DNA from: Candidatus Kerfeldbacteria bacterium
GTDB lineage: Bacteria; Patescibacteriota; Patescibacteriia; UBA9570; XYC2-FULL-38-9
Length of the DNA stretch: 64,000 nucleotides
Assembly (NCBI GenBank): GCA_043813585.1
Contig: JBDRKW010000005.1
Location: 3,409-67,408 of the forward strand
Direction: 5' to 3'
The notes below the pieces were generated by a model, which saw nothing but the letters and a program-made list of their open reading frames with translations, had not been told where the DNA came from and did no database searches. The translations under genes were made by a program, and so were the position numbers. Within the stretch, counting starts at the first letter, position 1. Each line of letters opens with the position of its first letter. This document shows positions 20,924 to 47,951 of the stretch, in pieces.

Positions 20924-22786
20924 TTAATTCTGTCTCGCTTCCGAATATGATTGATAAGCGGTTCGATACCAATCCCAATTATCTGGACGTTGCCACTGTA
21001 AATTTAGTTGCGAAATTTCCGCCCGGCTTAAATCAGGGCGCATAATATCAGTTATAGGCACCTCTGAAGCTTCAAGCCTTACGTTTTCATAGAAGCGCCG
21101 TTTAGCACTAATTCGGTATGAGAATGCCGCATCACTTCCTCCATTATTCGATTCAGTGACTTCAAATGATGTTATGCCACGCGTAACATAGACAGAATTT
21201 GAACCTATATCATCGTATAATGTGATCGTGACTTGTATTGGATTTTCTTGATCAATAGTTACTGTATCAAGAAAGAGTGGATCAATATTAATGTGTGCAT
21301 GACCATTTTCAAGTCGTGCTTCACCAAGGTCTTCAAACCATAGTTGTGTCGATTCAACAGCATATAATTTTGTTGGTCCTTGTGTTTGAGTATAGACAAC
21401 AGCTGGTTTTTCACCTGTAGCGCCAATATCACCATCAGCAAAAATCGCATATGCGCTTCCATTTGATGAATCCTCCCTACCGTATACACCATAAATTACA
21501 CCGGTTGTTGCTTGCGCAATTCCAGCCACTCCCGATGTGCCTGTGGCATTGGACTTCGCCTCACCATATACACCATATGTTGGACTACCTGATGTTGCAA
21601 GAGCGCTACCCCAGATACCAGAAGAGCCTTCTGCTGAAGAATATGTTTCACCCATGACACCATGACCTCTTCCAGAGAACTGGCCAGATCCATCAGGGTC
21701 GCCGATTGATCCACCCCAAACACCAGCGCCGAAAGTGTTTGCATCTTGAGTAGTTGCCCAATTAAAACCCATCACGCCGACTTGGCCATCAGTTGGATCA
21801 TCGTTAATGGCATCACCGCGCACACCCACAGGTTGTCCGAGTAGCGCCCCGGTAGCATTTGCAATGCCCCATATTCCGAATGGATTTGCTGAACCGCTGT
21901 TTGCAATACCCCTGATCGCAGTTTCATCACTGGGAGTAGAATTTTTTATTACGTATAATTTAGAATTTTTACATTGCCATTTTGGCGGAATGGATTCATC
22001 CTCACAATCAATGATTTCATCCTCATTAATAAGTACTGCACCACTATCTGTAATACGCATACGCTCATTATTTCCATCTGTATTGAAAATAATATTATCG
22101 GAGGACGTGGACTGTAATGTGAGGTCACCAGAGTTCGGTCCGTAAAGAATATCTTCAATCTTTAGATCACCAGCAACATGCAATAATTGGGCAGGACTAG
22201 TGGTGCCGATGCCTACCTTTCCATCTGACGCAAGCCGCATGCGCTCACTGTTTCCTGCGATAAGATACATATCGTCACCAGATGCACCGAGTGAAACATA
22301 GCCGGAATCAGTTGTGCTGTTGTCTATAAACGTAATACCAGCTAAAGCGTCTTCACTATGCAAACGAAGTCCGATATTCGTAGTACCACTATTTATGTGC
22401 AGCATCGATGCCGGGCTTGTTGTTCCGATTCCGACGTTTCCGGTGGAGGCAATACGTATTCGTTCCGCGTTTCCCGCTTTAAGCTGCATATCATTACCAA
22501 TTGCGCCGAGCACTACATAGCTATCTGACGTTGTTGAGTTGTCCTGAAAGGACATGTATGACATTGAATCCGTGCTTTGCAAGCGCATGCCAATATTGGT
22601 TCCACCACTGTCAATGTCCAGTTTTTTCGCGGGACTACTATTGCCAATTCCAACATTTCCAGAAACCGCGCTATACATATCAGATCCAGAAATCGTCCAG
22701 TCGCTGTCTGCCGCAACATTCGTTGCAGAAGCGATAAATAAAATCATAGCACAGAAAGTTGTTATGAAAGCGCGCGACATAGGCAT
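20924..22786 (-). CDS. Secreted tail-fibre-like repeat protein (repeated ERMRI...GNVGIGTTSPA modules)
   Basis: Signal peptide. At least 4 repeats of ...GNVGIGTTSPAxxLhV... interspersed with ERMRI/ERIRI, as seen in tail-fibre-domain proteins. Confidence 0.5.
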   Translation of the reverse strand: MPMSRAFITTFCAMILFIASATNVAADSDWTISGSDMYSAVSGNVGIGNSSPAKKLDIDSGGTNIGMRLQSTDSMSYMSFQDNSTTSDSYVVLGAIGNDMQLKAGNAERIRIASTGNVGIGTTSPASMLHINSGTTNIGLRLHSEDALAGITFIDNSTTDSGYVSLGASGDDMYLIAGNSERMRLASDGKVGIGTTSPAQLLHVAGDLKIEDILYGPNSGDLTLQSTSSDNIIFNTDGNNERMRITDSGAVLINEDEIIDCEDESIPPKWQCKNSKLYVIKNSTPSDETAIRGIANSGSANPFGIWGIANATGALLGQPVGVRGDAINDDPTDGQVGVMGFNWATTQDANTFGAGVWGGSIGDPDGSGQFSGRGHGVMGETYSSAEGSSGIWGSALATSGSPTYGVYGEAKSNATGTSGVAGIAQATTGVIYGVYGREDSSNGSAYAIFADGDIGATGEKPAVVYTQTQGPTKLYAVESTQLWFEDLGEARLENGHAHINIDPLFLDTVTIDQENPIQVTITLYDDIGSNSVYVTRGITSFEVTESNNGGSDAAFSYRISAKRRFYENVRLEASEVPITDIMRPDLSRAEISQLNLQWQRPDNWDWYRTAYQSYSEARQN

Positions 22787-22958: not shown

Positions 22959-23035
22959 AGCGCTGCCCCGGACCCGATTCCCCGTGCGGGTGCTAAAGAA
23001 GAAACGTCTCCCATTTGGGAGGCGTTTTTCTTTTT
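22959..23035 (+). repeat. Direct repeat copy 3: extended core plus identical terminator hairpin
   Basis: agcgctgccccggacccgattccccgtgcgggtgc followed by taaagaagaaacgtctcccatttgggaggcgtttttcttt. Confidence 0.75.
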
Positions 23036-23104
23036 CACATTTTATGCTGTAATATTATGAATCATCACTCGTATACAAAGCATATAATTAAAGAGCATAC
23101 CATC

Positions 23105-24361
23105 ATGAAAAATGTAATCATTGGCATTGCGATTGCGGCTGCGGTTGCGGGAATTGCCCTTGCCGCCTATTTTATTATTCCGGCTGTATCAGAGAACAAG
23201 CAAGTGCAGGCCGAGGCAGATGGCGTAACGGCATCCGACGAGAACAACGAAGCGACGGAAGAAGGAACGCAAGCAACGGAGGAACAGGAGGCGACGGCCA
23301 TAACAGACGTATCTCCCTACGCGGTTGTGAGCACGGAAAAAATAATGGATTTAAATGGCAGCAATAATGAATGGCTGCCCAGTCGCGTGAACGGTTGGCT
23401 GGAAAAAGGAGCGAGCTTTGAATTCGCTATTCCATTTGAAGGGTGTGAGGCATTCTGCGGGCCTGACGTTACGTATTCCTACGACATCGCAACAGGTGAA
23501 ACAGAAAAAACCTTAAACCCGCTAATGGAAGAAGGCTGGCGGCTCTCTCCGGATGAACGTCGTGCAATCCGAATTCGCAGAGTTGAAGACCATGATGACG
23601 AATCAGGCGACGGGGGAACGATTGAAATGATGGACATTCAATCAGGCAATACATATGTCATTGCTAAAGAGACATTCCTCACCGGAGCCGGCGGCACCTG
23701 GGTATCCGAAAAATATACCTATCCGCGCTGGTCGCCGGACAGCAAATGGATTGTGATGTACGACAAGAGCCAGTGGGATGAAAACGGGCCGATGGTCGTA
23801 CTGTTCCCTTCAGACGCGGCAGACCTCTCCGGTTTGGCTGAACTGGGGCAATCAATATTTATTGAGACCGAGCGTGCCCCGTACGAGCAGTACTTCATCT
23901 GGTCGCCGGACAGCACCTACTTCATTGTAAATGACAATACGGATGTATTCTCGGCAGCGGAAGGGAAGCGCATCTATGAATCCAACCGCGATGAACGTGT
24001 ATTCGCCTGGTCTCCAAAAAGCGACAAGGTACTCATCGCAACGGTCTCCGATGATGAGGACACGCGCGGCCTTTCTTCGCTCTCTATAATGAACCCGGAC
24101 GGAACCGACAGGGTATTGATATTCAAGGATGTGCTCGTTGATAGCCTCTATGATATTTTTGCCTCCTGGTCCGAAGATGGAACACAGGTATTGGTTTCAA
24201 TGAACGACCAACTCGTGATCTATGACCTGGAGAGCAAGATGAGCGGTTTGGTTGCGGCGCAGGAAGGCGGGTTCAGGAATATCGCCTGGAACAAAGACGG
24301 CAGGCAGGTACTGTTTGACCGGGATAACGCTGCATGGCTCCTGGAGTACACGCGGGAATAG
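23105..24361 (+). CDS. Membrane-anchored PD40/TolB-like beta-propeller repeat protein
   Basis: N-terminal TM segment. Recurrent WSPDSKWIV, WSPDSTYFIV, FAWSPKSDKVLI, ASWSEDGTQVLV and IAWNKDGRQVLF strands. Start set to the ATG at 23105. Confidence 0.5.
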   Translation: MKNVIIGIAIAAAVAGIALAAYFIIPAVSENKQVQAEADGVTASDENNEATEEGTQATEEQEATAITDVSPYAVVSTEKIMDLNGSNNEWLPSRVNGWLEKGASFEFAIPFEGCEAFCGPDVTYSYDIATGETEKTLNPLMEEGWRLSPDERRAIRIRRVEDHDDESGDGGTIEMMDIQSGNTYVIAKETFLTGAGGTWVSEKYTYPRWSPDSKWIVMYDKSQWDENGPMVVLFPSDAADLSGLAELGQSIFIETERAPYEQYFIWSPDSTYFIVNDNTDVFSAAEGKRIYESNRDERVFAWSPKSDKVLIATVSDDEDTRGLSSLSIMNPDGTDRVLIFKDVLVDSLYDIFASWSEDGTQVLVSMNDQLVIYDLESKMSGLVAAQEGGFRNIAWNKDGRQVLFDRDNAAWLLEYTRE

Positions 24362-28938: not shown

Positions 28939-28966
28939 TTGACTTTGCGGCATAATGGGCTATAGT
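28939..28966 (+). promoter_or_regulatory. Promoter TTGACT-16-TATAGT driving the T-box leader
   Basis: -35 at 28939-28944 and -10 at 28961-28966. Confidence 0.5.
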
Positions 28967-28972
28967 ATCCTT

Positions 28973-29165
28973 ACATTATATATAGAGGTGTCTGACTGTC
29001 GGGCTGTGTCGCCGGCAGGAGCTTCCCGGGAAAGCGTTAAAAAGTCCAACCGGGACGGATAGCCGACGTCAACGGCCAACGAAGCGCCCAGCGCATGCAG
29101 ACAAACAGCGCAGGGAATTCAGGTGGTACCGCCCACAACAGGGCCCTGAAATAGAGGGCTTTTTA
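28973..29165 (+). promoter_or_regulatory. T-box riboswitch leader (likely Val-specific) upstream of the HD-valS operon
   Basis: aattcAGGUGGUACCGCC at 29116-29133 matches the T-box consensus AAnnAGGGUGGNACCGCG (UGGU pairs with the ACCA of tRNA-Val, discriminator A). Candidate specifier GUC-A at 29068-29071. Terminator hairpin gccct-gaaatag-agggc plus T5 (29145-29164) lies 9 nt before the ATG. Confidence 0.5.
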
Positions 29166-29173
29166 TTATCTCT

Positions 29174-30154
29174 ATGGACTATACCGACAAAATCTACGGA
29201 CCAATAAAAATCGATGAACCGGTCATCGAAGAGTTGATCGCAAGCAAGCCGATACAGCGCTTGAAAAACATCAACCAGTACGGCGCGTCTTTCTATCGGT
29301 TTCCGCATTTGTCAACGACGCGATTCGAGCACAGCGTTGGCGTGTATCATGTTTTGCGCCATCTTGGCGCGCCGTTACTCGAACAGGTCTTCGGTCTGCT
29401 GCACGACGCTCCGCACACGGCATTTTCCCATGTGGCCGATTTCGTATTTGAAGACGCGTCGCAGGCGTTCCATGAAAAATTTCTTGAACGAACCATATTC
29501 GAATCCGAAATTCCAAAGATCCTAAAGAAGCACGGTCTTTCAGTTTGGAAGCTGCTTGATAAGCAATCTTTCAAGCTTGCCGAACGGTCAGCGCCGGACC
29601 TGTGCGCCGACCGCATCGACTATTTTTTCCGCGATTGCGTAACAGACAAACAACTCGACCTTCCGGACGCGCGCAAGATGCTTGCCGATCTTTTTGTATA
29701 TGAAGGCGATATCGTTTTCCGATCACAAGAGCTGGCAAAGAAGTTTGCGACGACATACAGAGGCGCGAACGAGAAGCTGTGGGCCAATCCATTACAGTCG
29801 GCTGCGTATTACCTCCTGGCGCATGCCATGAAAACAGCGCTCGAAGAAGGCGTTATTACGTTTAGTGATATTTTCCTCACCGACGAAGAGGTCTACACAA
29901 AGATGAAGCAGTCCAACAACGAAGAAATCCTGCGCTACATCGAAGAGATGGAACGCGTCGTCATAAAAGAAGATGCAGATGACTACGACTACCACATCAA
30001 ACCGAAAATCAGGATCGTTGACCCGTATGTCTTAACCCGCGAAGCCGGCCGCGACATAAAAAAACGCCTCGGAGAGCTCGACCCGACATTCAGAGAACGG
30101 AACGAATCATTCTACGAGCGGCTCTCAAAAGGATATTATGTAAAAATACTATAA
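29174..30154 (+). CDS. HD-domain phosphohydrolase
   Basis: H...HD metal-binding motifs (HSVGVYHV...LLHDAPHTAFSH...DRIDY). Its stop lies 4 nt before valS. Confidence 0.65.
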   Translation: MDYTDKIYGPIKIDEPVIEELIASKPIQRLKNINQYGASFYRFPHLSTTRFEHSVGVYHVLRHLGAPLLEQVFGLLHDAPHTAFSHVADFVFEDASQAFHEKFLERTIFESEIPKILKKHGLSVWKLLDKQSFKLAERSAPDLCADRIDYFFRDCVTDKQLDLPDARKMLADLFVYEGDIVFRSQELAKKFATTYRGANEKLWANPLQSAAYYLLAHAMKTALEEGVITFSDIFLTDEEVYTKMKQSNNEEILRYIEEMERVVIKEDADDYDYHIKPKIRIVDPYVLTREAGRDIKKRLGELDPTFRERNESFYERLSKGYYVKIL

Positions 30155-30158
30155 CCGT

Positions 30159-32738
30159 ATGGAAAAAGCCTACGACCCCAAACAATACGAAGACGACATC
30201 TATAAAAAGTGGGAAGACTCCGGCTATTTTAATCCGGACAACCTGCCGGGCGACCGCACGGAGCCGTTTTCCGTGATGATGCCGCCGCCGAACGTGACCG
30301 GCGTTCTGCACCTCGGCCACGCGTTTGAGCATTCATTGATGGACACAAAGGTCCGTTTTGAGCGCATGCGCGGAAAGAAAGCCCTGCTTCTGCCGGGAAC
30401 AGACCATGCGGCGATCGCAACGCAAGCCCGCGTCGAAGACAAGCTGAAAAAAGAAGGCGTGGAGAACCCGCGCCAGGAATACGGCCGTGAGAAGCTATTG
30501 GAGATCATCCGCGAGTTTGCTGAAGAATCCAAAGCGACAATGCTGGGCCAGATCCGGAGAATCGGGACGAGCTGTGATTGGTCGCGCCTCGCATATACGT
30601 TTGACGAAGATCGCTCCCGCGCAGTAAACGCGATGTTCAAGAAGATGTATGATGACGGGCTGATTTATCGCGGGTACCGCGTGGTGAACTGGTCGGTTGC
30701 GGGGCAGTCAACCTGTTCGGAAGATGAGCTGGAATACAAAGAACAACCGACGACAATCTACACGTTTAAGTATTCAAAGGATTTTCCGATCGCGATTGCA
30801 TCCACACGGCCGGAAACAAAGCTGGGCGACACGGCAGTTGCGGTCCATCCGGAAGACAAGCGCTATAAAAAGTTCATCGGTGAGGAATTCACTGTTGACG
30901 TGGGTGCTGCTACGCCTCTTACAATTAAAATAATCGCTGACGAATCAGTCGACCCGGAATACGGTACGGGCGCGCTCGGCGTGACGCCGGCGCACAGCGC
31001 GATCGACTTTGAGATGTATGAGCGCAATAAAGAGATTGGTTTGAATCAGGTGATCGGCACGGACGGCAGGATGACCGACAACGCCGGGAAGGCCTATAAA
31101 GGGCTGACAACAGAAGAAGCGCGTGCGAAGTTCGTACAGTGGCTGCGCGATCAGAAATTATTAGTCAACGAAGAAGAGGCAATGCATAGCGTCGGCGCAT
31201 CAGACCGGTACAAGGATGTGGTTGAGGCGCTGCCCATGGACCAGTGGTTCGTGGACGTGAACAAGGAAATTCCCGGCCGCGGCAAGTCGCTGAAAGAGCT
31301 CATGAAGGACGCAGTGACGACCGGCCACAACGGTGACAAGTCGAAGAAGGTGGAGATCGCACCTGAACAGTTTCTCAAGACCTACCTGCACTGGATCGAG
31401 AACCTGAAGGACTGGTGCATCAGCCGCCAGATCTGGTGGGGCCACCGGATTCCGGTATGGACGAAAGGAGAAGATGTGCATGTGGGAGCGGAAGCGCCGG
31501 AGGGCGGCGGCTGGACGCAGGACGAAGACACGCTGGACACCTGGTTCTCCTCCGGCATGTGGGCATTTTCCACGCTCGGTTGGCCGGAAGAAACGATCGA
31601 CCTCCAAACATTTTTTCCGACGTCCTGGATGCAGATGGGATATGAAATTTTGTTCCTTTGGCTTGCGCGCATGATTCTTATGTCGACGTACGGCCTTGAT
31701 GACATCCCGTTTACGCAGGCGCACATCCACGGCATCCTTCGCGACAAGAGAGGAAAGAAGTTTTCAAAAACGGCAGGAAACGGGGTTGACCCGATTGAGA
31801 TGGCGAACAAGTACGGCACGGATGCGCTGCGCTTCAGCCTGCTTAAAGGCATTGCGCCGGGCAACGATTCGCGTTTTTATGAAGAGAAGGTGGAGGACGG
31901 GCGCAACTTTGTGAATAAGCTCTGGAATATGGCGCGGTTTATCTCCATGCAGGAGATCGATGAAGCCGGCAAGCCGTCGATTGCGGACCGGTGGATCCTG
32001 TCTCGGCTGAATGCTGTTATAAGAGAGGTGGAACAGATGTATGAAAACGACCAGTTCGGCCAGGCTGCAGACACGTTGTACAATTTCACCTGGCATGAAT
32101 TTGCCGATTGGTATATTGAGATCACCAAGGTGCAGCCGAACCCTGCAGTCACACGCGACGTGCTGGAACAGATTATAAAGCTCGCGCACCCGCTTATCCC
32201 GTTCGTGACTGAAGCGATCTGGAAGGAGCTTGGTAAAGAATCGATGCTCATTATTGAACAGTGGCCGGAAGCGGACGAGTCATTAATTGATAACGCAGCA
32301 GAAAAGCAACTCGAAGACGTAAAAGAATTGATTTCTTCCATACGTCACATCAGAAAAGAGTACAACATCAAACCAAAACAGGAGCTCGAAGCATTAAAGA
32401 GCGATATTGATGATGAAGATGCAGCACTTGTCCAACAACTCGCATCAGTTTCATTTGTCGCAGAAAAGAAGTTCACAAATAGTGCCACCGCAGTAGCAGG
32501 TGACAAGCAAATTATCATCCCGCTTGACGGAGTGATTGATGTTGAAGCAGAAAAGAAGCGCATAGAAAGAGAGATTAAAGCAAAAGAAGGATACCTGGCC
32601 GGACTAGAGAAGAAGCTGGGCAACAAGAAGTTCCTGGAGAGCGCTCCAGAAGAGGTTATCGAACAAAACAAGCAATCAAAGGCCGAAGCAGAGGCCGAAT
32701 TGAGCAATTTACAGCAAGCACTTGCAAATTTGTCGTAA
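30159..32738 (+). CDS. valS: Valine--tRNA ligase
   Basis: PPPNVTGVLHLGHA (HIGH), KFSKT (KMSKS) and a C-terminal coiled-coil. 859 aa. Confidence 0.9.
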   Translation: MEKAYDPKQYEDDIYKKWEDSGYFNPDNLPGDRTEPFSVMMPPPNVTGVLHLGHAFEHSLMDTKVRFERMRGKKALLLPGTDHAAIATQARVEDKLKKEGVENPRQEYGREKLLEIIREFAEESKATMLGQIRRIGTSCDWSRLAYTFDEDRSRAVNAMFKKMYDDGLIYRGYRVVNWSVAGQSTCSEDELEYKEQPTTIYTFKYSKDFPIAIASTRPETKLGDTAVAVHPEDKRYKKFIGEEFTVDVGAATPLTIKIIADESVDPEYGTGALGVTPAHSAIDFEMYERNKEIGLNQVIGTDGRMTDNAGKAYKGLTTEEARAKFVQWLRDQKLLVNEEEAMHSVGASDRYKDVVEALPMDQWFVDVNKEIPGRGKSLKELMKDAVTTGHNGDKSKKVEIAPEQFLKTYLHWIENLKDWCISRQIWWGHRIPVWTKGEDVHVGAEAPEGGGWTQDEDTLDTWFSSGMWAFSTLGWPEETIDLQTFFPTSWMQMGYEILFLWLARMILMSTYGLDDIPFTQAHIHGILRDKRGKKFSKTAGNGVDPIEMANKYGTDALRFSLLKGIAPGNDSRFYEEKVEDGRNFVNKLWNMARFISMQEIDEAGKPSIADRWILSRLNAVIREVEQMYENDQFGQAADTLYNFTWHEFADWYIEITKVQPNPAVTRDVLEQIIKLAHPLIPFVTEAIWKELGKESMLIIEQWPEADESLIDNAAEKQLEDVKELISSIRHIRKEYNIKPKQELEALKSDIDDEDAALVQQLASVSFVAEKKFTNSATAVAGDKQIIIPLDGVIDVEAEKKRIEREIKAKEGYLAGLEKKLGNKKFLESAPEEVIEQNKQSKAEAEAELSNLQQALANLS

Positions 32739-46642: not shown

Positions 46643-46734
46643 GGTTTATCCTCCTGGTTGCAAAGACCTGGGCGTGCATTGCCGCATGCACCGCACCCGC
46701 TTTTTGACTGTGACGCGGCTGGGTAACGTATGAT

Positions 46735-46768
46735 AAAAAAGCCGCGCTGTCAAGGCGCGGCTTTTTTT
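46735..46768. terminator. Bidirectional terminator (A6-gccgcgc-tgtcaag-gcgcggc-T7)
   Basis: A perfect 7-bp GC stem flanked by an A-run and a T-run. Confidence 0.6.
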
Positions 46769-46775
46769 CATCTCG

Positions 46776-47951
46776 TTATTTTTTCCCTCCAAGCGGTTCC
46801 TCCTCAATAAGTTCATAGTCCTGGTACCAGCCCTTCATGTCAGATTTCTCGCCCCTTGGAAGGCGGCGGAAGCGTTTTCTCGTGCTTTCCCTAAAACTCT
46901 CTTCAGTTACAAATGAATCCAGATCGTCATCACCTTTATATTCATATTCAATCCTATAGCTGCGTTCGCCGTTAAAGGTGCGTTCAGATTTGGTCACGCG
47001 GCCTGCCGCATCGTGCATATACCTGTACTGGTCATCAATGGTATGATCGCCGGTTGTATCTATTTCCCTCTTATACGTTACCCGGCCACCGCTGTCATAC
47101 TCCCATTGTTTCTGAACCCTTTTCCTCTCTTTTTTTGTTTGACTCTCAAGTGTTCCGTCAGGGCCTCGCGTCTGCAGGACTTCAACGTACGCGGTGTCAT
47201 GTTTGACCGGCCGGCCGTATTCACTATTTTTATCTTCCTTGATAATGCCGGTTACTTCCCTGTCCGGGTTTTCTTTCATTGATTCCCGGCCTTTGAATAA
47301 CGTGGTTTCAGCAGTCACGGTTGATTTGTCCGGATCCTCCGGATCGTAGGTGTACTTTGCCCGCGTTTCGAGCCGTTTACCTTCCATTTGGCCCAAATAG
47401 CTGAATTTGTCCTCTGCGACGCGCGACGTGAATTCTGTCGCCGGACGGTTTTTTTCATCATAGGAGATCTCCTTCACTGCCGTTTCCTGAAGCGATCCGT
47501 TTGAATATTTTTTTTCTATGGTCGCTTTTGGGAGCTGGCCCGGCTCAACCTGCTCGTACTGGTATTCCGTGTCTGTAAACATCCCTTCTCCTCCGACGGT
47601 GACTTCGCGCAACACAACGCCGTTCGGCGCCTCGCGCCGGTACTCCCTAACTTTGCCTGAGCCCGTTTCGAATGTTGTCCTGCTGACCCCTACCAACTTG
47701 CCGTCGACAACAGTCTGAACACGCTGTTCGCTGCTGATGGAGTCCATTTTCTGGTGCGTAATAATTTCTTGCGCAACGACCTTGCCACTTTTATCCGTAA
47801 CATCATTTGTTTCGTGTTTTTTTCCGCTAAGGAAATCAAACATCCGCGGCTGTTCAGGCGTGCCCGGTTTGACCTGGCCCTCCCGTTCATGCTTCGTGGG
47901 CGCCAGCGCGCTTGGAGGAAAGCTTTTCATTCTCGGCTCTCTTGTTGCCAT
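46776..47951 (-). CDS. Hydrophilic repeat protein with YD/Rhs-like repeats; no signal peptide
   Basis: GRVTYKREIDTTGDHTIDDQYRYMHDAAGRVTKSERTFNGERSYRIEYEY resembles YD-repeat units (xYxYDxxGR). Confidence 0.35.
   Translation of the reverse strand: MATREPRMKSFPPSALAPTKHEREGQVKPGTPEQPRMFDFLSGKKHETNDVTDKSGKVVAQEIITHQKMDSISSEQRVQTVVDGKLVGVSRTTFETGSGKVREYRREAPNGVVLREVTVGGEGMFTDTEYQYEQVEPGQLPKATIEKKYSNGSLQETAVKEISYDEKNRPATEFTSRVAEDKFSYLGQMEGKRLETRAKYTYDPEDPDKSTVTAETTLFKGRESMKENPDREVTGIIKEDKNSEYGRPVKHDTAYVEVLQTRGPDGTLESQTKKERKRVQKQWEYDSGGRVTYKREIDTTGDHTIDDQYRYMHDAAGRVTKSERTFNGERSYRIEYEYKGDDDLDSFVTEESFRESTRKRFRRLPRGEKSDMKGWYQDYELIEEEPLGGKK

What the first reader, a model, noticed from the sequence alone, without database searches (positions are those of the whole stretch)
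28939..29176. T-box riboswitch leader controlling an HD-domain gene fused in an operon with valS
A consensus-like promoter is followed by a roughly 190-nt GC-rich leader.
- It contains aattcAGGUGGUACCGCC, which matches the T-box motif 12/14; the UGGU bulge pairs with the tRNA-Val ACCA end.
- A terminator hairpin plus U5 ends 9 nt before the HD-gene ATG.
- valS starts 4 nt after the HD stop.
- A GUC-A candidate specifier lies at 29068-29071.

A T-box on an HD-valS operon is unusual (valS T-boxes normally abut valS directly). It would also be taxonomically informative.
Basis: partly seen in the sequence, partly recalled or inferred. Interest (0 to 1): 0.55.

Follow-up and report, generated by a model that had tools for sequence, protein, structure and literature searches.

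The report
Short-stem valine T-box in CPR bacterium
The leader before the HD-valS genes of this Kerfeldbacteria (CPR) genome is a real tRNA-sensing T-box riboswitch, unusual because it joins the very short decoding stem known only from translational ileS T-boxes of Actinobacteria to a transcription terminator and a valine codon.

Summary
A sigma-70-like promoter (28939-28966) drives a ~200-nt leader that carries the T-box core, then a hairpin plus U5 ending 9 nt before the HD gene. valS starts 4 nt after the HD stop.

Rfam RF00230 scores it 28.7 bits against a gathering score of 93, because Stem I is ultrashort. It has a K-turn, 7 bp and a 9-nt apical loop, with no elbow-binding distal domain.

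Twelve homologous leaders from Patescibacteria support every helix. On the MAFFT alignment of seven leaders, 89.8% of cells pair versus 23-46% in shifted registers; 20-24 pairs carry compensatory changes.

The specifier is GUC at 29008-29010 in the apical loop (Val codon plus purine in 12/12).

The expression platform is an antiterminator (29120-29148) competing with a more stable terminator (29140-29162 plus U-tract). Few genes here have an SD-like motif, so SD sequestration is unlikely.

The published ultrashort class is translational, ileS-only, and known mainly from Actinobacteria. This is therefore a new variant of a known kind. It always sits before the SAMHD1/EF1143-like HD gene.

The parts
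28939..28966 (+). Sigma-70-like promoter: -35 TTGACT (28939-28944), 16-nt spacer, -10 TATAGT (28961-28966). The likely transcript start is the conserved 'ACA' at about 28973.
   Evidence: 10 of 12 consensus matches. The same TTGACw-spacer-TAnnnT plus ACA layout is seen in the 11 related leaders.
28986..29024 (+). Ultrashort Stem I. K-turn base: C-stem AGGU 28986-28989 with GCUU 29021-29024, a bulge, and tandem GA 28994-28995 with GA 29019-29020. Then a 7-bp helix, CUGUCGG 28996-29002 with CCGGCAG 29012-29018, and a 9-nt apical loop at 29003-29011.
   Evidence: The helix is 91-94% paired, and 3 to 5 of its 7 pairs have changes on both sides. No distal T-loop (IDTM) domain is present.
29008..29011 (+). 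Specifier codon GUC (valine) followed by the conserved purine G29011, at the 3' edge of the apical loop.
   Evidence: a Val codon plus purine sits at this position in 12 of 12 leaders (GUC x9, GUU x1, GUG x2). The next-best amino acid scores 2 of 12. The codon column is aligned.
29025..29054 (+). Stem II: CCCGG 29025-29029 pairs with CCGGG 29050-29054. A conserved 5' purine string GAAAG lies at 29030-29034.
   Evidence: 100% paired, and 3 to 4 of 5 pairs have changes on both sides. The purine string is conserved.
29055..29076 (+). Stem IIA/B pseudoknot. IIA: ACG 29055-29057 with CGU 29067-29069. IIB: GCCG 29062-29065 with CGGC 29073-29076.
   Evidence: One search aligns it to the model's CGUUA. 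One search shows the IIB pairs as GCCG/CGGC, CGCC/GGCG, GUCA/UGAC, ACUC/GAGU, UAGU/ACUA and GCUA/UAGC. In one search all 4 IIB pairs have changes on both sides.
29082..29117 (+). Discriminator brace: purine string AAGCG (RRRNG) 29082-29086; Stem III, CCCAGCGC 29087-29094 with GCGCAGGG 29108-29115; then AA at 29116-29117.
   Evidence: The motif definition comes from PMC7778990 and PMC7583486. In some searches all 5 basal pairs of Stem III have changes on both sides.
29120..29148 (+). Antiterminator. Helix A1: CAGG 29120-29123 with CCUG 29145-29148. The 7-nt T-box bulge UGGUACC lies at 29124-29130, and its UGGU would pair with a tRNA 3'-ACCA end. Helix A2: GCCC 29131-29134 with GGGC 29141-29144.
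   Evidence: 100% paired in 11 leaders, and 4 of 8 pairs have changes on both sides, versus 11-62% paired when slid.: -9.0 kcal/mol.
29140..29164 (+). Intrinsic terminator. AGGGCCCU 29140-29147 pairs with AGGGCUUU 29155-29162 across the loop GAAAUAG, and is followed by U5 at 29160-29164. It shares 29141-29147 with the antiterminator.
   Evidence: -10.9 kcal/mol. The terminator is more stable than the antiterminator in 9 of 9 Kerfeldbacteria-type leaders. Per-sequence parses show 7-9 bp plus a U-tract in each.
29174..30154 (+). First regulated gene: a 326-aa HD-domain phosphohydrolase with a compact EF1143/SAMHD1-like fold.
   Evidence: Model pLDDT is 91.6. Foldseek TM-score is 0.73-0.75 to EF1143 and to Aquifex 2hek. 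The H..HD..D residues are invariant.
30159..32738 (+). valS, valyl-tRNA synthetase (859 aa), starting 4 nt after the HD stop codon.
   Evidence: tRNA-synt_1, Anticodon_1 and Val_tRNA-synt_C domains. The HD-to-valS order is conserved in 26 of 27 related loci.

Best explanation
This is a valine-responsive T-box riboswitch that most likely works by transcription attenuation, and its decoding module is of the 'ultrashort Stem I' type.

1. Transcription starts near 28973.
2. The nascent leader folds into a K-turn-based 7-bp Stem I. Its 9-nt apical loop presents the codon GUC (29008-29010) followed by a purine.
3. [quoted passage not shown] There is no distal domain to hold the tRNA elbow.
4. tRNA-Val docks by its anticodon.
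5. If the tRNA is uncharged, its 3'-ACCA end pairs with UGGU (29124-29127) in the T-box bulge. This stabilises the antiterminator (29120-29148), braced by the AAGCG-Stem III-AA purines, and RNA polymerase reads through into the HD gene and valS.
6. If the tRNA is charged or absent, the more stable terminator hairpin (29140-29162) plus U5 forms, and transcription stops before 29174.

Shown here: the sequence elements, a conserved and covarying secondary structure, codon identity, the mutually exclusive hairpins with their relative stabilities, and the gene context.

Inferred: tRNA binding, discrimination between charged and uncharged tRNA, and termination in vivo.
For: - RF00230 aligns over its full length at 28982-29151, with E = 1.1e-4 locally and 0.018 window-wide.
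- Twelve homologous leaders lie upstream of HD-valS in Patescibacteria.
- On a plain MAFFT alignment of 7 leaders, 89.8% of cells pair versus 23-46% in slid registers. Twenty pairs have changes on both sides versus 2-5 when slid, and 0 of 500 shuffles reach this.
- On the model-based alignment of 12 leaders, 93.3% of cells pair and 24 of 32 pairs have changes on both sides.
- The antiterminator is 100% paired in 11 leaders, with 4 of 8 pairs changed on both sides.
- A Val codon plus purine sits at the 3' edge of the apical loop in 12 of 12 leaders, with third-position drift C/U/G. This matches the valS gene downstream.
- The motifs that the literature lists as defining are present: K-turn GA/GA, F-box-like CGUCA in a covarying pseudoknot, RRRNG-Stem III-AA, and the UGGNACC bulge.
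- The terminator overlaps the 3' half of the antiterminator and is more stable in 9 of 9 leaders, -10.6 to -15.3 versus -7.4 to -9.5 kcal/mol. Each is followed by a U-tract.
- Changes in the A2 3' strand (GGGC, GGAC, GGGU) are matched in both the A2 5' strand and the terminator 3' strand.
- Against SD control: only 6 of 38 gene starts in the window have an SD-like motif, and the distance from the core motif to the HD start varies from 50 to 129 nt among relatives.
Against: - The Rfam score is far below the curated threshold (28.7 versus 93).
- The terminator helix could not be confirmed by the column-based covariation test, because the alignment register was poor there. It rests on per-sequence folds and my own parses.
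- The terminator is short (7-9 bp, including G-U pairs).
- The A2 pair next to the bulge is G-C in the window and in 7 of 9 relatives, not the G.U wobble described as the main aminoacyl sensor.
- Published work holds that transcriptional T-boxes need the elbow-binding distal Stem I for fast tRNA capture (PMC7583486). A terminator-type T-box without it is therefore mechanistically unproven.
- No tRNA-Val gene was available to check the pairings.
- About half of the related loci lack the leader, so it is dispensable.
Confidence: 0.8

Rival explanations
1. It is the same T-box but acts on translation. On this view the 29140-29162 hairpin is a sequestrator that hides a ribosome-binding site (the GAGGG at 29156-29160), as in the ileS T-boxes of Actinobacteria, which share the ultrashort Stem I.
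For: - Every described ultrashort-Stem-I T-box is translational (bioRxiv 10.1101/2023.02.28.530422; PMC7583486).
- The 3' strand of the hairpin contains an SD-like AGGG or GAGG in most Kerfeldbacteria-type leaders.
- Lack of the elbow-binding domain is argued to suit translational control, which is not under time pressure.
Against: - The GAGG lies 13 nt from the ATG in the window.
- In relatives the whole hairpin lies much further from the start: the core-to-start distance is 50-129 nt, and the terminator-to-ATG distance is roughly 20 to 80 nt.
- Every hairpin is followed by a U-tract.
- Only 6 of 38 genes in the window have any SD-like motif, and many starts look leaderless.
Confidence: 0.1
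2. One reading: a canonical T-box with a long Stem I (specifier internal loop, AG bulge, distal loop) and the specifier GUC-A at 29068-29071.
For: GUN-A occurs at this site in all ten leaders that have the element: GUC, GUG, GUU or GUA followed by A.
Against: - The site aligns to the CGUUA of the RF00230 model.
- Its C-G-U are base-paired in Stem IIA, with invariant C-G and G-C pairs.
- L004 and L010 lack the element but keep the loop codon.
- There is no room for a long Stem I: 17 nt where the model has 80.
Confidence: 0.03
3. It is a decaying or non-functional remnant of a T-box, or a leader that uses the conserved hairpins for something other than tRNA sensing, such as a protein-dependent attenuator.
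For: - The Rfam score is sub-threshold.
- The leader is absent from 15 of 27 related HD-valS loci.
- It has a G-C pair in place of the sensor G.U pair.
- One relative (L010) has lost Stem II and the pseudoknot.
Against: - Compensatory changes maintain all seven helices plus the pseudoknot across hosts whose HD proteins are only 48-77% identical.
- The UGGUACC bulge is invariant.
- A valine codon is kept in 12 of 12 leaders despite third-position drift.
- These are signs of purifying selection on tRNA-sensing features.
Confidence: 0.05

Closest known systems
Ultrashort (US) Stem I T-box riboswitches of Actinobacteria ileS (Mycobacterium smegmatis, M. tuberculosis, Nocardia farcinica; Sherwood 2015, PDB 6UFG/6UFM as cited in PMC7583486)
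   Same: - The specifier sits in the terminal loop of a short Stem I.
- There is no distal double-T-loop domain.
- Stem II, the Stem IIA/B pseudoknot with F-box, the linker purines, Stem III and the UGGN bulge are all present, so the decoding module has the same architecture.
   Different: - That class is described as translational (SD sequestrator), as regulating only ileS with tRNA-Ile, and as found in Actinobacteria.
- The element here has a terminator hairpin plus U-tract and a valine codon.
- It precedes an HD-valS unit and sits in a Patescibacteria genome that makes little use of SD sequences.
Class I transcriptional T-box leaders (Rfam RF00230; e.g. Bacillus subtilis tyrS, and valS leaders of Bacillota)
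   Same: - The same discriminator: RRRNG-Stem III-AA, and a T-box sequence with a 7-nt bulge flanked by helices A1 and A2.
- An overlapping intrinsic terminator that is more stable than the antiterminator.
- A K-turn at the base of Stem I, and a codon that matches the regulated synthetase.
   Different: - Stem I is about 60 nt shorter and lacks the specifier internal loop, the AG bulge and the distal loop that bind the tRNA elbow.
- The score is 28.7 bits against a gathering score of 93.
- The A2 closing pair is G-C, not G.U.
- The first regulated gene is an HD phosphohydrolase rather than the synthetase.
glyQS T-box (minimal class I T-box lacking Stem II and IIA/B)
   Same: It is another natural example of a T-box that dispenses with one tRNA-contacting module while still acting by termination.
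   Different: glyQS keeps the long Stem I and loses Stem II. The element here does the opposite: it keeps Stem II and IIA/B and loses the distal Stem I.
EF1143 (Enterococcus faecalis), Aquifex O67745 (2hek) and SAMHD1 HD-domain dNTP triphosphohydrolases (for the first regulated gene)
   Same: The same fold (Foldseek TM-score 0.73-0.75 normalised to the query), N-terminal sequence similarity, and invariant H..HD..D metal-binding residues.
   Different: - It is 326 aa versus 370-480 aa, with only 17-23% identity.
- No NCBIfam family matches.
- Neither allosteric sites nor activity were assessed.
- It is fixed next to valS in this clade, which I have not seen described for this family (from my own knowledge).

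Membership tests
T-box leader (Rfam RF00230) | Score at or above the curated gathering threshold of the covariance model | tested here: not met
   28.7 bits versus 93. There is no hit in the gathering-mode scan. E = 1.1e-4 in a 401-nt search and 0.018 over 64 kb.
T-box leader (Rfam RF00230) | T-box sequence forming an antiterminator: helices A1 and A2 flanking a 7-nt bulge UGGNACC | tested here: met
   CAGG-UGGUACC-GCCC...GGGC-CCUG at 29120-29148. It is 100% paired in 11 leaders, 4 of 8 pairs have changes on both sides, and the bulge is invariant.
T-box leader (Rfam RF00230) | Specifier codon that matches the regulated gene's amino acid, followed by a purine | tested here: met
   GUC-G at 29008-29011, with valS downstream. 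Val codon plus purine in 12 of 12 leaders.
T-box leader (Rfam RF00230) | K-turn (GA motif) at the base of Stem I | tested here: met
   5' GA at 28994-28995 after a 4-nt bulge, and 3' GA at 29019-29020 before the C-stem. GA or a close variant is present in most of the 12 leaders. This was judged by sequence only.
T-box leader (Rfam RF00230) | Long Stem I with a specifier internal loop and the distal double-T-loop (AG bulge plus distal loop) that binds the tRNA elbow | tested here: not met
   Only 17 nt stand where the model has 80. Stem I ends in a 9-nt loop in all 12 leaders.
T-box leader (Rfam RF00230) | Stem II with S-turn and 5-purine string | tested here: inconclusive
   The helix covaries (100% paired), and the 5' purine string GRAAA is conserved. 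The canonical 3' AGUA is not conserved among relatives, and S-turn geometry cannot be tested here.
T-box leader (Rfam RF00230) | Stem IIA/B pseudoknot with F-box | tested here: met
   CGUCA at 29067-29071 aligns to the model's CGUUA. The IIB pairs covary in 6 different sequence versions, and 4 of 4 pairs have changes on both sides.
T-box leader (Rfam RF00230) | 5'-RRRNG-Stem III-AA-3' purine brace | tested here: met
   AAGCG 29082-29086, Stem III 29087-29115 and AA 29116-29117. Stem III covaries.
T-box leader (Rfam RF00230) | G.U wobble closing helix A2 next to the bulge (steric sensor of the aminoacyl group) | tested here: not met
   The window has G29131-C29144. The pair is G-C in 7 of 9 Kerfeldbacteria-type leaders, A-U in L169 and G.U only in L163.
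T-box leader (Rfam RF00230) | Intrinsic terminator mutually exclusive with the antiterminator | tested here: met
   The hairpin at 29140-29162 plus U5 shares 29141-29147 with the antiterminator. It is more stable in 9 of 9 leaders. The column-based covariation test was uninformative.
T-box leader (Rfam RF00230) | Binding of the cognate uncharged tRNA, and tRNA-dependent readthrough | not testable with these tools
   No tRNA-Val gene is present in the window or in any locus. No experiment was possible.
Ultrashort-Stem-I translational T-box class (Actinobacteria ileS) | Specifier in the terminal loop of a short Stem I, with no elbow-binding domain and with Stem II and IIA/B present | tested here: met
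Ultrashort-Stem-I translational T-box class (Actinobacteria ileS) | Expression platform is an SD sequestrator/antisequestrator | tested here: not met
   The platform is a hairpin followed by a U-tract. The hairpin lies at variable and long distances from the start codon. SD-like motifs occur at only 6 of 38 gene starts.
Ultrashort-Stem-I translational T-box class (Actinobacteria ileS) | Regulates ileS and responds to tRNA-Ile | tested here: not met
   The codon is GUC (Val), and the downstream genes are HD and valS.
SAMHD1/EF1143-type HD dNTP triphosphohydrolases (HD gene) | HD fold with H..HD..D metal ligands | tested here: met
   Pfam HD at 23.4 bits. H53, H77, D78 and D146 are invariant. 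Foldseek TM-score is 0.73-0.75 to 2o6i, 4lrl and 2hek.
SAMHD1/EF1143-type HD dNTP triphosphohydrolases (HD gene) | dNTP triphosphohydrolase activity and allosteric nucleotide sites | not testable with these tools
   No assay was possible, the protein is about 120 aa shorter than EF1143, and no NCBIfam family matches.

The most novel reading that the evidence does not exclude
Kerfeldbacteria and related Patescibacteria carry a previously undescribed T-box class. It combines the elbow-independent, ultrashort-Stem-I decoding module, so far tied to translational ileS control in Actinobacteria, with an intrinsic terminator and valine specificity.

If it works as predicted, it is a natural counter-example to the view that transcriptional T-boxes need the distal Stem I to capture tRNA fast enough. 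It would also be the first native riboswitch-type nutrient sensor described in CPR bacteria.

Its tight linkage to a compact SAMHD1-like HD hydrolase, rather than to valS itself, would point to an unknown link between tRNA-Val charging and nucleotide metabolism.
Probability: 0.4. Interest if true: 0.75.

Novelty: new variant of a known kind. Interest (0 to 1): 0.6.

Why it matters
- **A test of a current model.** T-box reviews explain the long Stem I of transcriptional T-boxes by kinetic pressure: tRNA must be caught before the polymerase reaches the terminator. They treat the short Stem I as a luxury of translational switches (PMC7583486). A terminator-type T-box without the elbow-binding domain tests that idea directly, with a 200-nt RNA that is easy to assay in vitro.
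- **A gap in annotation.** Rfam-based annotation misses this class (28.7 versus 93 bits). T-box regulation in CPR genomes, whose regulation is described as virtually unknown (PMC11665869), is therefore probably under-counted. The covariance model built here, or a better one, could be run over all CPR genomes.
- **A compact natural tRNA sensor.** The class widens the set of compact natural tRNA sensors available for engineering.
- **A lead on the HD protein.** The leader always precedes the HD gene. That flags a SAMHD1-like hydrolase as part of the valine-starvation response in organisms that must scavenge both amino acids and nucleotides.

Tried and rejected
- **Default Rfam scan of the window:** no T-box. 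A permissive search was needed.
- **Plain MFE fold of 28973-29170:** z = -1.37 and not informative. It mixes the two alternative states.
rejected. It is the F-box in Stem IIA.
- **Cys (UGU) as an alternative codon in the loop:** present in 12 of 12 loops, but followed by a purine at the right place in only 2 of 12.
- **GGTGGNACC cores near distant HD homologs in Bacillaceae, inside L006, and on the window's minus strand (17922, 22598):** chance matches or a tRNA. No Rfam T-box was found in the Bacillaceae and other distant loci, the L006 cores lie in what reads as coding sequence, and no R1 hit occurs at the L006 or window sites.
- **A second T-box directly upstream of valS in loci where HD and valS are separated:** none. 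No promoter or terminator signals were found in those gaps, the ORFs in the gaps have no Pfam family, and the inserts are not homologous between lineages.
- **Column-based covariation test of the terminator:** uninformative because of register problems in the MAFFT alignment. One call failed on a length error.
- **tRNA-Val gene to test the pairings:** none in the window or the loci.
- **Papers not held:** Sherwood 2015, Sherwood 2018 and Vitreschak 2008. The definition of the US class therefore rests on a review and a preprint.
- **Literature searches for T-box together with Patescibacteria or CPR:** no paper found.
- **Only 3 close loci came from the metagenome scan.** The remaining leaders came from exact-protein look-ups.
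Full report
**1. The observation**

- A promoter TTGACT-16 nt-TATAGT lies at 28939-28966 and matches 10 of 12 consensus positions.
- The string aattCAGGTGGTACCGCC lies at 29116-29133.
- A hairpin, AGGGCCCT-gaaatag-AGGGCTTT, lies at 29140-29162. It runs into T5 at 29160-29164, which ends 9 nt before the ATG at 29174.
- The ORF at 29174-30154 is an HD-domain protein. The ORF at 30159-32738 is valyl-tRNA synthetase, 4 nt downstream.
- The HD protein is 100% identical to an NCBI entry from a Candidatus Kerfeldbacteria MAG, so the window comes from a Patescibacteria (CPR) genome.

**2. Is it a T-box?**

- At Rfam's curated threshold the window holds only two tRNAs and no T-box.
- With permissive filters, RF00230 aligns over its whole length to 28982-29151. 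The score is only 28.7 bits against a gathering score of 93. E is 1.1e-4 in a 401-nt search and 0.018 over the whole window.
- The score is low because the model's roughly 80-nt distal Stem I is replaced here by 17 nt.

I therefore looked for comparative evidence.
- Relatives of the HD protein were fetched from species-representative genomes, from metagenomes and by exact-protein look-ups.
- In 26 of 27 Patescibacteria loci whose HD protein is at least 47% identical, valS follows HD on the same strand, usually after 1-30 nt.
- Twelve of these loci carry a homologous leader upstream of HD: the window, L001 (= L081), L004, L007, L010, L011, L161, L162, L163, L167, L168 and L169.
- In L163 the gene caller had extended the HD ORF over the leader.
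- The other 15 loci have only a promoter and a short untranslated region.
- The 11 leaders aligned start behind the same TTGACw-spacer-TAnnnT promoter, with a conserved ACA about 6 nt after the -10. That puts the window's transcript start near 28973.

**3. Structure**

I projected a structure drawn on the window sequence onto a plain MAFFT alignment of seven leaders.
- 89.8% of cells form standard pairs, against 23-46% when the 3' partners are slid by 1-3 columns.
- Twenty of 38 pairs show changes on both sides, against 2-5 in the slid controls.
- None of 500 shuffles reaches these values.

I then built a covariance model from that alignment (R1).
- It recovers all 12 leaders and nothing else in 291 kb, including the rest of the window.
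- On its alignment, 93.3% of cells pair and 24 of 32 pairs have changes on both sides. That alignment leans towards the structure.

The elements, in window coordinates:
- **K-turn base of Stem I:** AGGU 28986-28989 with GCUU 29021-29024, and GA 28994-28995 with GA 29019-29020.
- **Stem I helix:** 28996-29002 with 29012-29018.
- **Apical loop:** GCUGUGUCG at 29003-29011.
- **Stem II:** 29025-29029 with 29050-29054, with a conserved purine string GAAAG.
- **Stem IIA:** 29055-29057 with 29067-29069.
- **Pseudoknot IIB:** GCCG 29062-29065 with CGGC 29073-29076. In relatives this pairing appears as CGCC/GGCG, GUCA/UGAC, ACUC/GAGU, UAGU/ACUA and GCUA/UAGC.
- **Discriminator brace:** AAGCG 29082-29086, Stem III 29087-29115, then AA 29116-29117.
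- **Antiterminator:** CAGG-UGGUACC-GCCC...GGGC-CCUG at 29120-29148.

The antiterminator is 100% paired in 11 leaders, and 4 of its 8 pairs are changed on both sides.

These are the motifs the literature lists for T-boxes: K-turn, F-box pseudoknot, the 5'-RRRNG-Stem III-AA-3' brace and the UGGN bulge (PMC7778990; PMC7583486; PMC11297988). I conclude with high confidence that this is a genuine T-box.

**4. The specifier**

- The Rfam model aligns it to its conserved CGUUA.
- C29067, G29068 and U29069 are the 3' strand of Stem IIA, where the C-G and G-C pairs are invariant.
- L004 and L010 lack the element altogether.
- The GU is fixed by the F-box, which explains why 'GUN-A' looks conserved there.

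All 12 leaders instead carry a valine codon followed by a purine at the 3' edge of the Stem I apical loop.
- GUC-G occurs eight times, GUC-A once, GUU-A once and GUG-A twice.
- No other amino acid exceeds 2 of 12.
- The first two bases are fixed and the third drifts, as expected for a codon read by tRNA-Val.
- In the window the specifier is GUC at 29008-29010, followed by G29011.

An apical-loop specifier on a short Stem I without the elbow-binding double T-loop is the signature of the 'ultrashort' class (PMC7583486).

**5. Expression platform**

- In the nine Kerfeldbacteria-type leaders, the 3' half of the antiterminator can instead pair with a downstream strand. This gives a 7-9-bp hairpin directly followed by a U-tract.
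- That hairpin is more stable than the free antiterminator in 9 of 9 leaders: -10.6 to -15.3 versus -7.4 to -9.5 kcal/mol. In the window it is -10.9 versus -9.0. The default state is therefore OFF, as T-box logic requires.
- Where the shared strand changes (GGGC, GGAC in L004, GGGU in L169), both partners change with it.
- The column-based test of the terminator was uninformative because of register problems. This part rests on per-sequence folds.

Translational control is unlikely.
- The distance from the hairpin to the start codon is variable and long. The core-to-start distance is 50-129 nt.
- Only 6 of 38 gene starts in the window have any SD-like motif.
- Many starts sit just behind a -10-like hexamer, which suggests leaderless mRNAs.

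I put transcription attenuation at roughly 0.8 and translational control at 0.1.

**6. Comparison with what is known**

- The decoding half matches the ultrashort ileS T-boxes of Actinobacteria. The discriminator and terminator half matches class I transcriptional T-boxes.
[quoted passage not shown] - I found no paper that links T-boxes with Patescibacteria or CPR.
- One further deviation: the A2 pair next to the bulge is G-C here and in 7 of 9 relatives. The review calls the canonical G.U pair at this position the primary aminoacyl sensor.

The element is therefore a member of the T-box superfamily by its defining discriminator and specifier features. It fails the Rfam threshold and the long-Stem-I feature. 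It also fails three defining features of the published ultrashort class: platform, amino acid and taxon. I file it as a new variant of a known kind.

I could not read Sherwood 2015 or Vitreschak 2008. An earlier mention of terminator-type short-stem T-boxes cannot be excluded.

**7. The regulated genes**

- The leader always precedes the HD gene and never lies between HD and valS.
- In four leader-bearing loci (L162, L163, L167, L169), valS is 355-1083 nt further on, beyond lineage-specific inserts that carry opposite-strand ORFs of no known family. There is no second leader, and no promoter or terminator signal was found in the three gaps scanned, L162, L167 and L169. Co-transcription of valS in those loci is unresolved.
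- In the window the 4-nt gap makes an HD-valS operon very likely.
- The HD protein gives a confident model (pLDDT 91.6). It has the fold of the EF1143/SAMHD1 dNTP triphosphohydrolases and of Aquifex 2hek (TM-score 0.73-0.75 normalised to the query; sequence matches). The H..HD..D residues are invariant. It is about 120 residues shorter than EF1143 and matches no NCBIfam family.
- Its activity is unknown. A role linking valine starvation to nucleotide pools is only an inference.
- Distant homologs in Bacillaceae are not T-box controlled.

**8. Verdict**

The finding is real and its main interpretation is right: a T-box in front of an HD-valS unit.
- It has an ultrashort Stem I with an apical-loop valine specifier.
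- It is joined to a terminator, in a CPR bacterium, and current Rfam annotation does not detect it.

My confidence that it is a T-box is about 0.95. That it is valine-specific through 29008-29010, about 0.9. That it acts by termination, about 0.8. That this combination is undescribed, about 0.5.

Noticed in passing
L007:3782-3941, L010:322-480, L011:3841-3988: This is a shorter subclass of the same leader (HD proteins about 50% identical). It has no Stem III, so RRRNG runs straight into AA. Its 'GAAGUGA' is complementary to 'UCACUUU' just before the U-tract. In L010 and L011 the GGUGG of the T-box can also pair with a downstream CUACC or CCACC. The terminator therefore seems to wrap around the antiterminator rather than overlap its 3' half. 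L010 also lacks Stem II and the IIA/B pseudoknot, which would make it the most minimal T-box-like leader I have seen.
   Followed up: partly
window, many gene starts (e.g. 36409, 39677(-), 42878(-), 51413(-)): Only 6 of 38 long ORFs have an SD-like motif within 25 nt of the start. Many have a TATAAT- or TATACT-like hexamer 6-12 nt before the ATG. This suggests widespread leaderless or very short-leader mRNAs in this Kerfeldbacteria genome.
   Followed up: partly
L162:2485-2839, L167:2485-3079, L169:2485-3556, L163:2653-3735 (= L082:923-2005), L012:4973-7802: The HD-valS junction is a hot spot for lineage-specific insertions of 355-2830 nt. The inserts carry opposite-strand ORFs with no Pfam family and are not homologous between lineages. 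No promoter or terminator consensus was found in the three gaps scanned (L162, L167, L169).
   Followed up: partly
L163:1501-2652 (protein P0009, 383 aa): The public gene call for this HD homolog starts 177 nt too far upstream and swallows the whole T-box leader. The over-long homologs P0018 (351 aa) and P0048 (418 aa) may have the same problem.
   Followed up: partly
window:29131 and 29144: The helix A2 pair next to the T-box bulge is G-C rather than the G.U wobble described as the steric sensor of the aminoacyl group. Among relatives only L163 has G.U, and L169 has A-U.
   Followed up: partly
L014-L080 and L084-L160: The next-closest relatives of this Patescibacteria HD protein (38-46% identity) are mostly from DPANN archaea (Nanoarchaeota, Woesearchaeota, Aenigmatarchaeota, Nanohaloarchaea), ahead of Bacillota. 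That hints at gene exchange between the two groups of ultrasmall episymbionts. None of these has valS directly downstream.
   Followed up: no
window:27039-28875; L162 and L168, 5' parts: The synteny tsaD (+), DsbA-like thioredoxin-fold gene (-), then leader-HD-valS (+) is shared by the window, L162 and L168. L165 and L166 keep the DsbA-like gene but have no leader.
   Followed up: no
window:22997-23128 (-) and 46662-46830: There are weak sub-threshold Rfam matches to amino-acid operon leader families: Phe_leader at 34 bits (E = 0.07), and Thr and Leu leaders (E = 0.3-0.5). They are probably chance hairpin-plus-U matches. The flanking ORFs 20924-22786(-) and 23015-24361(+) have no Pfam family.
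   Followed up: no
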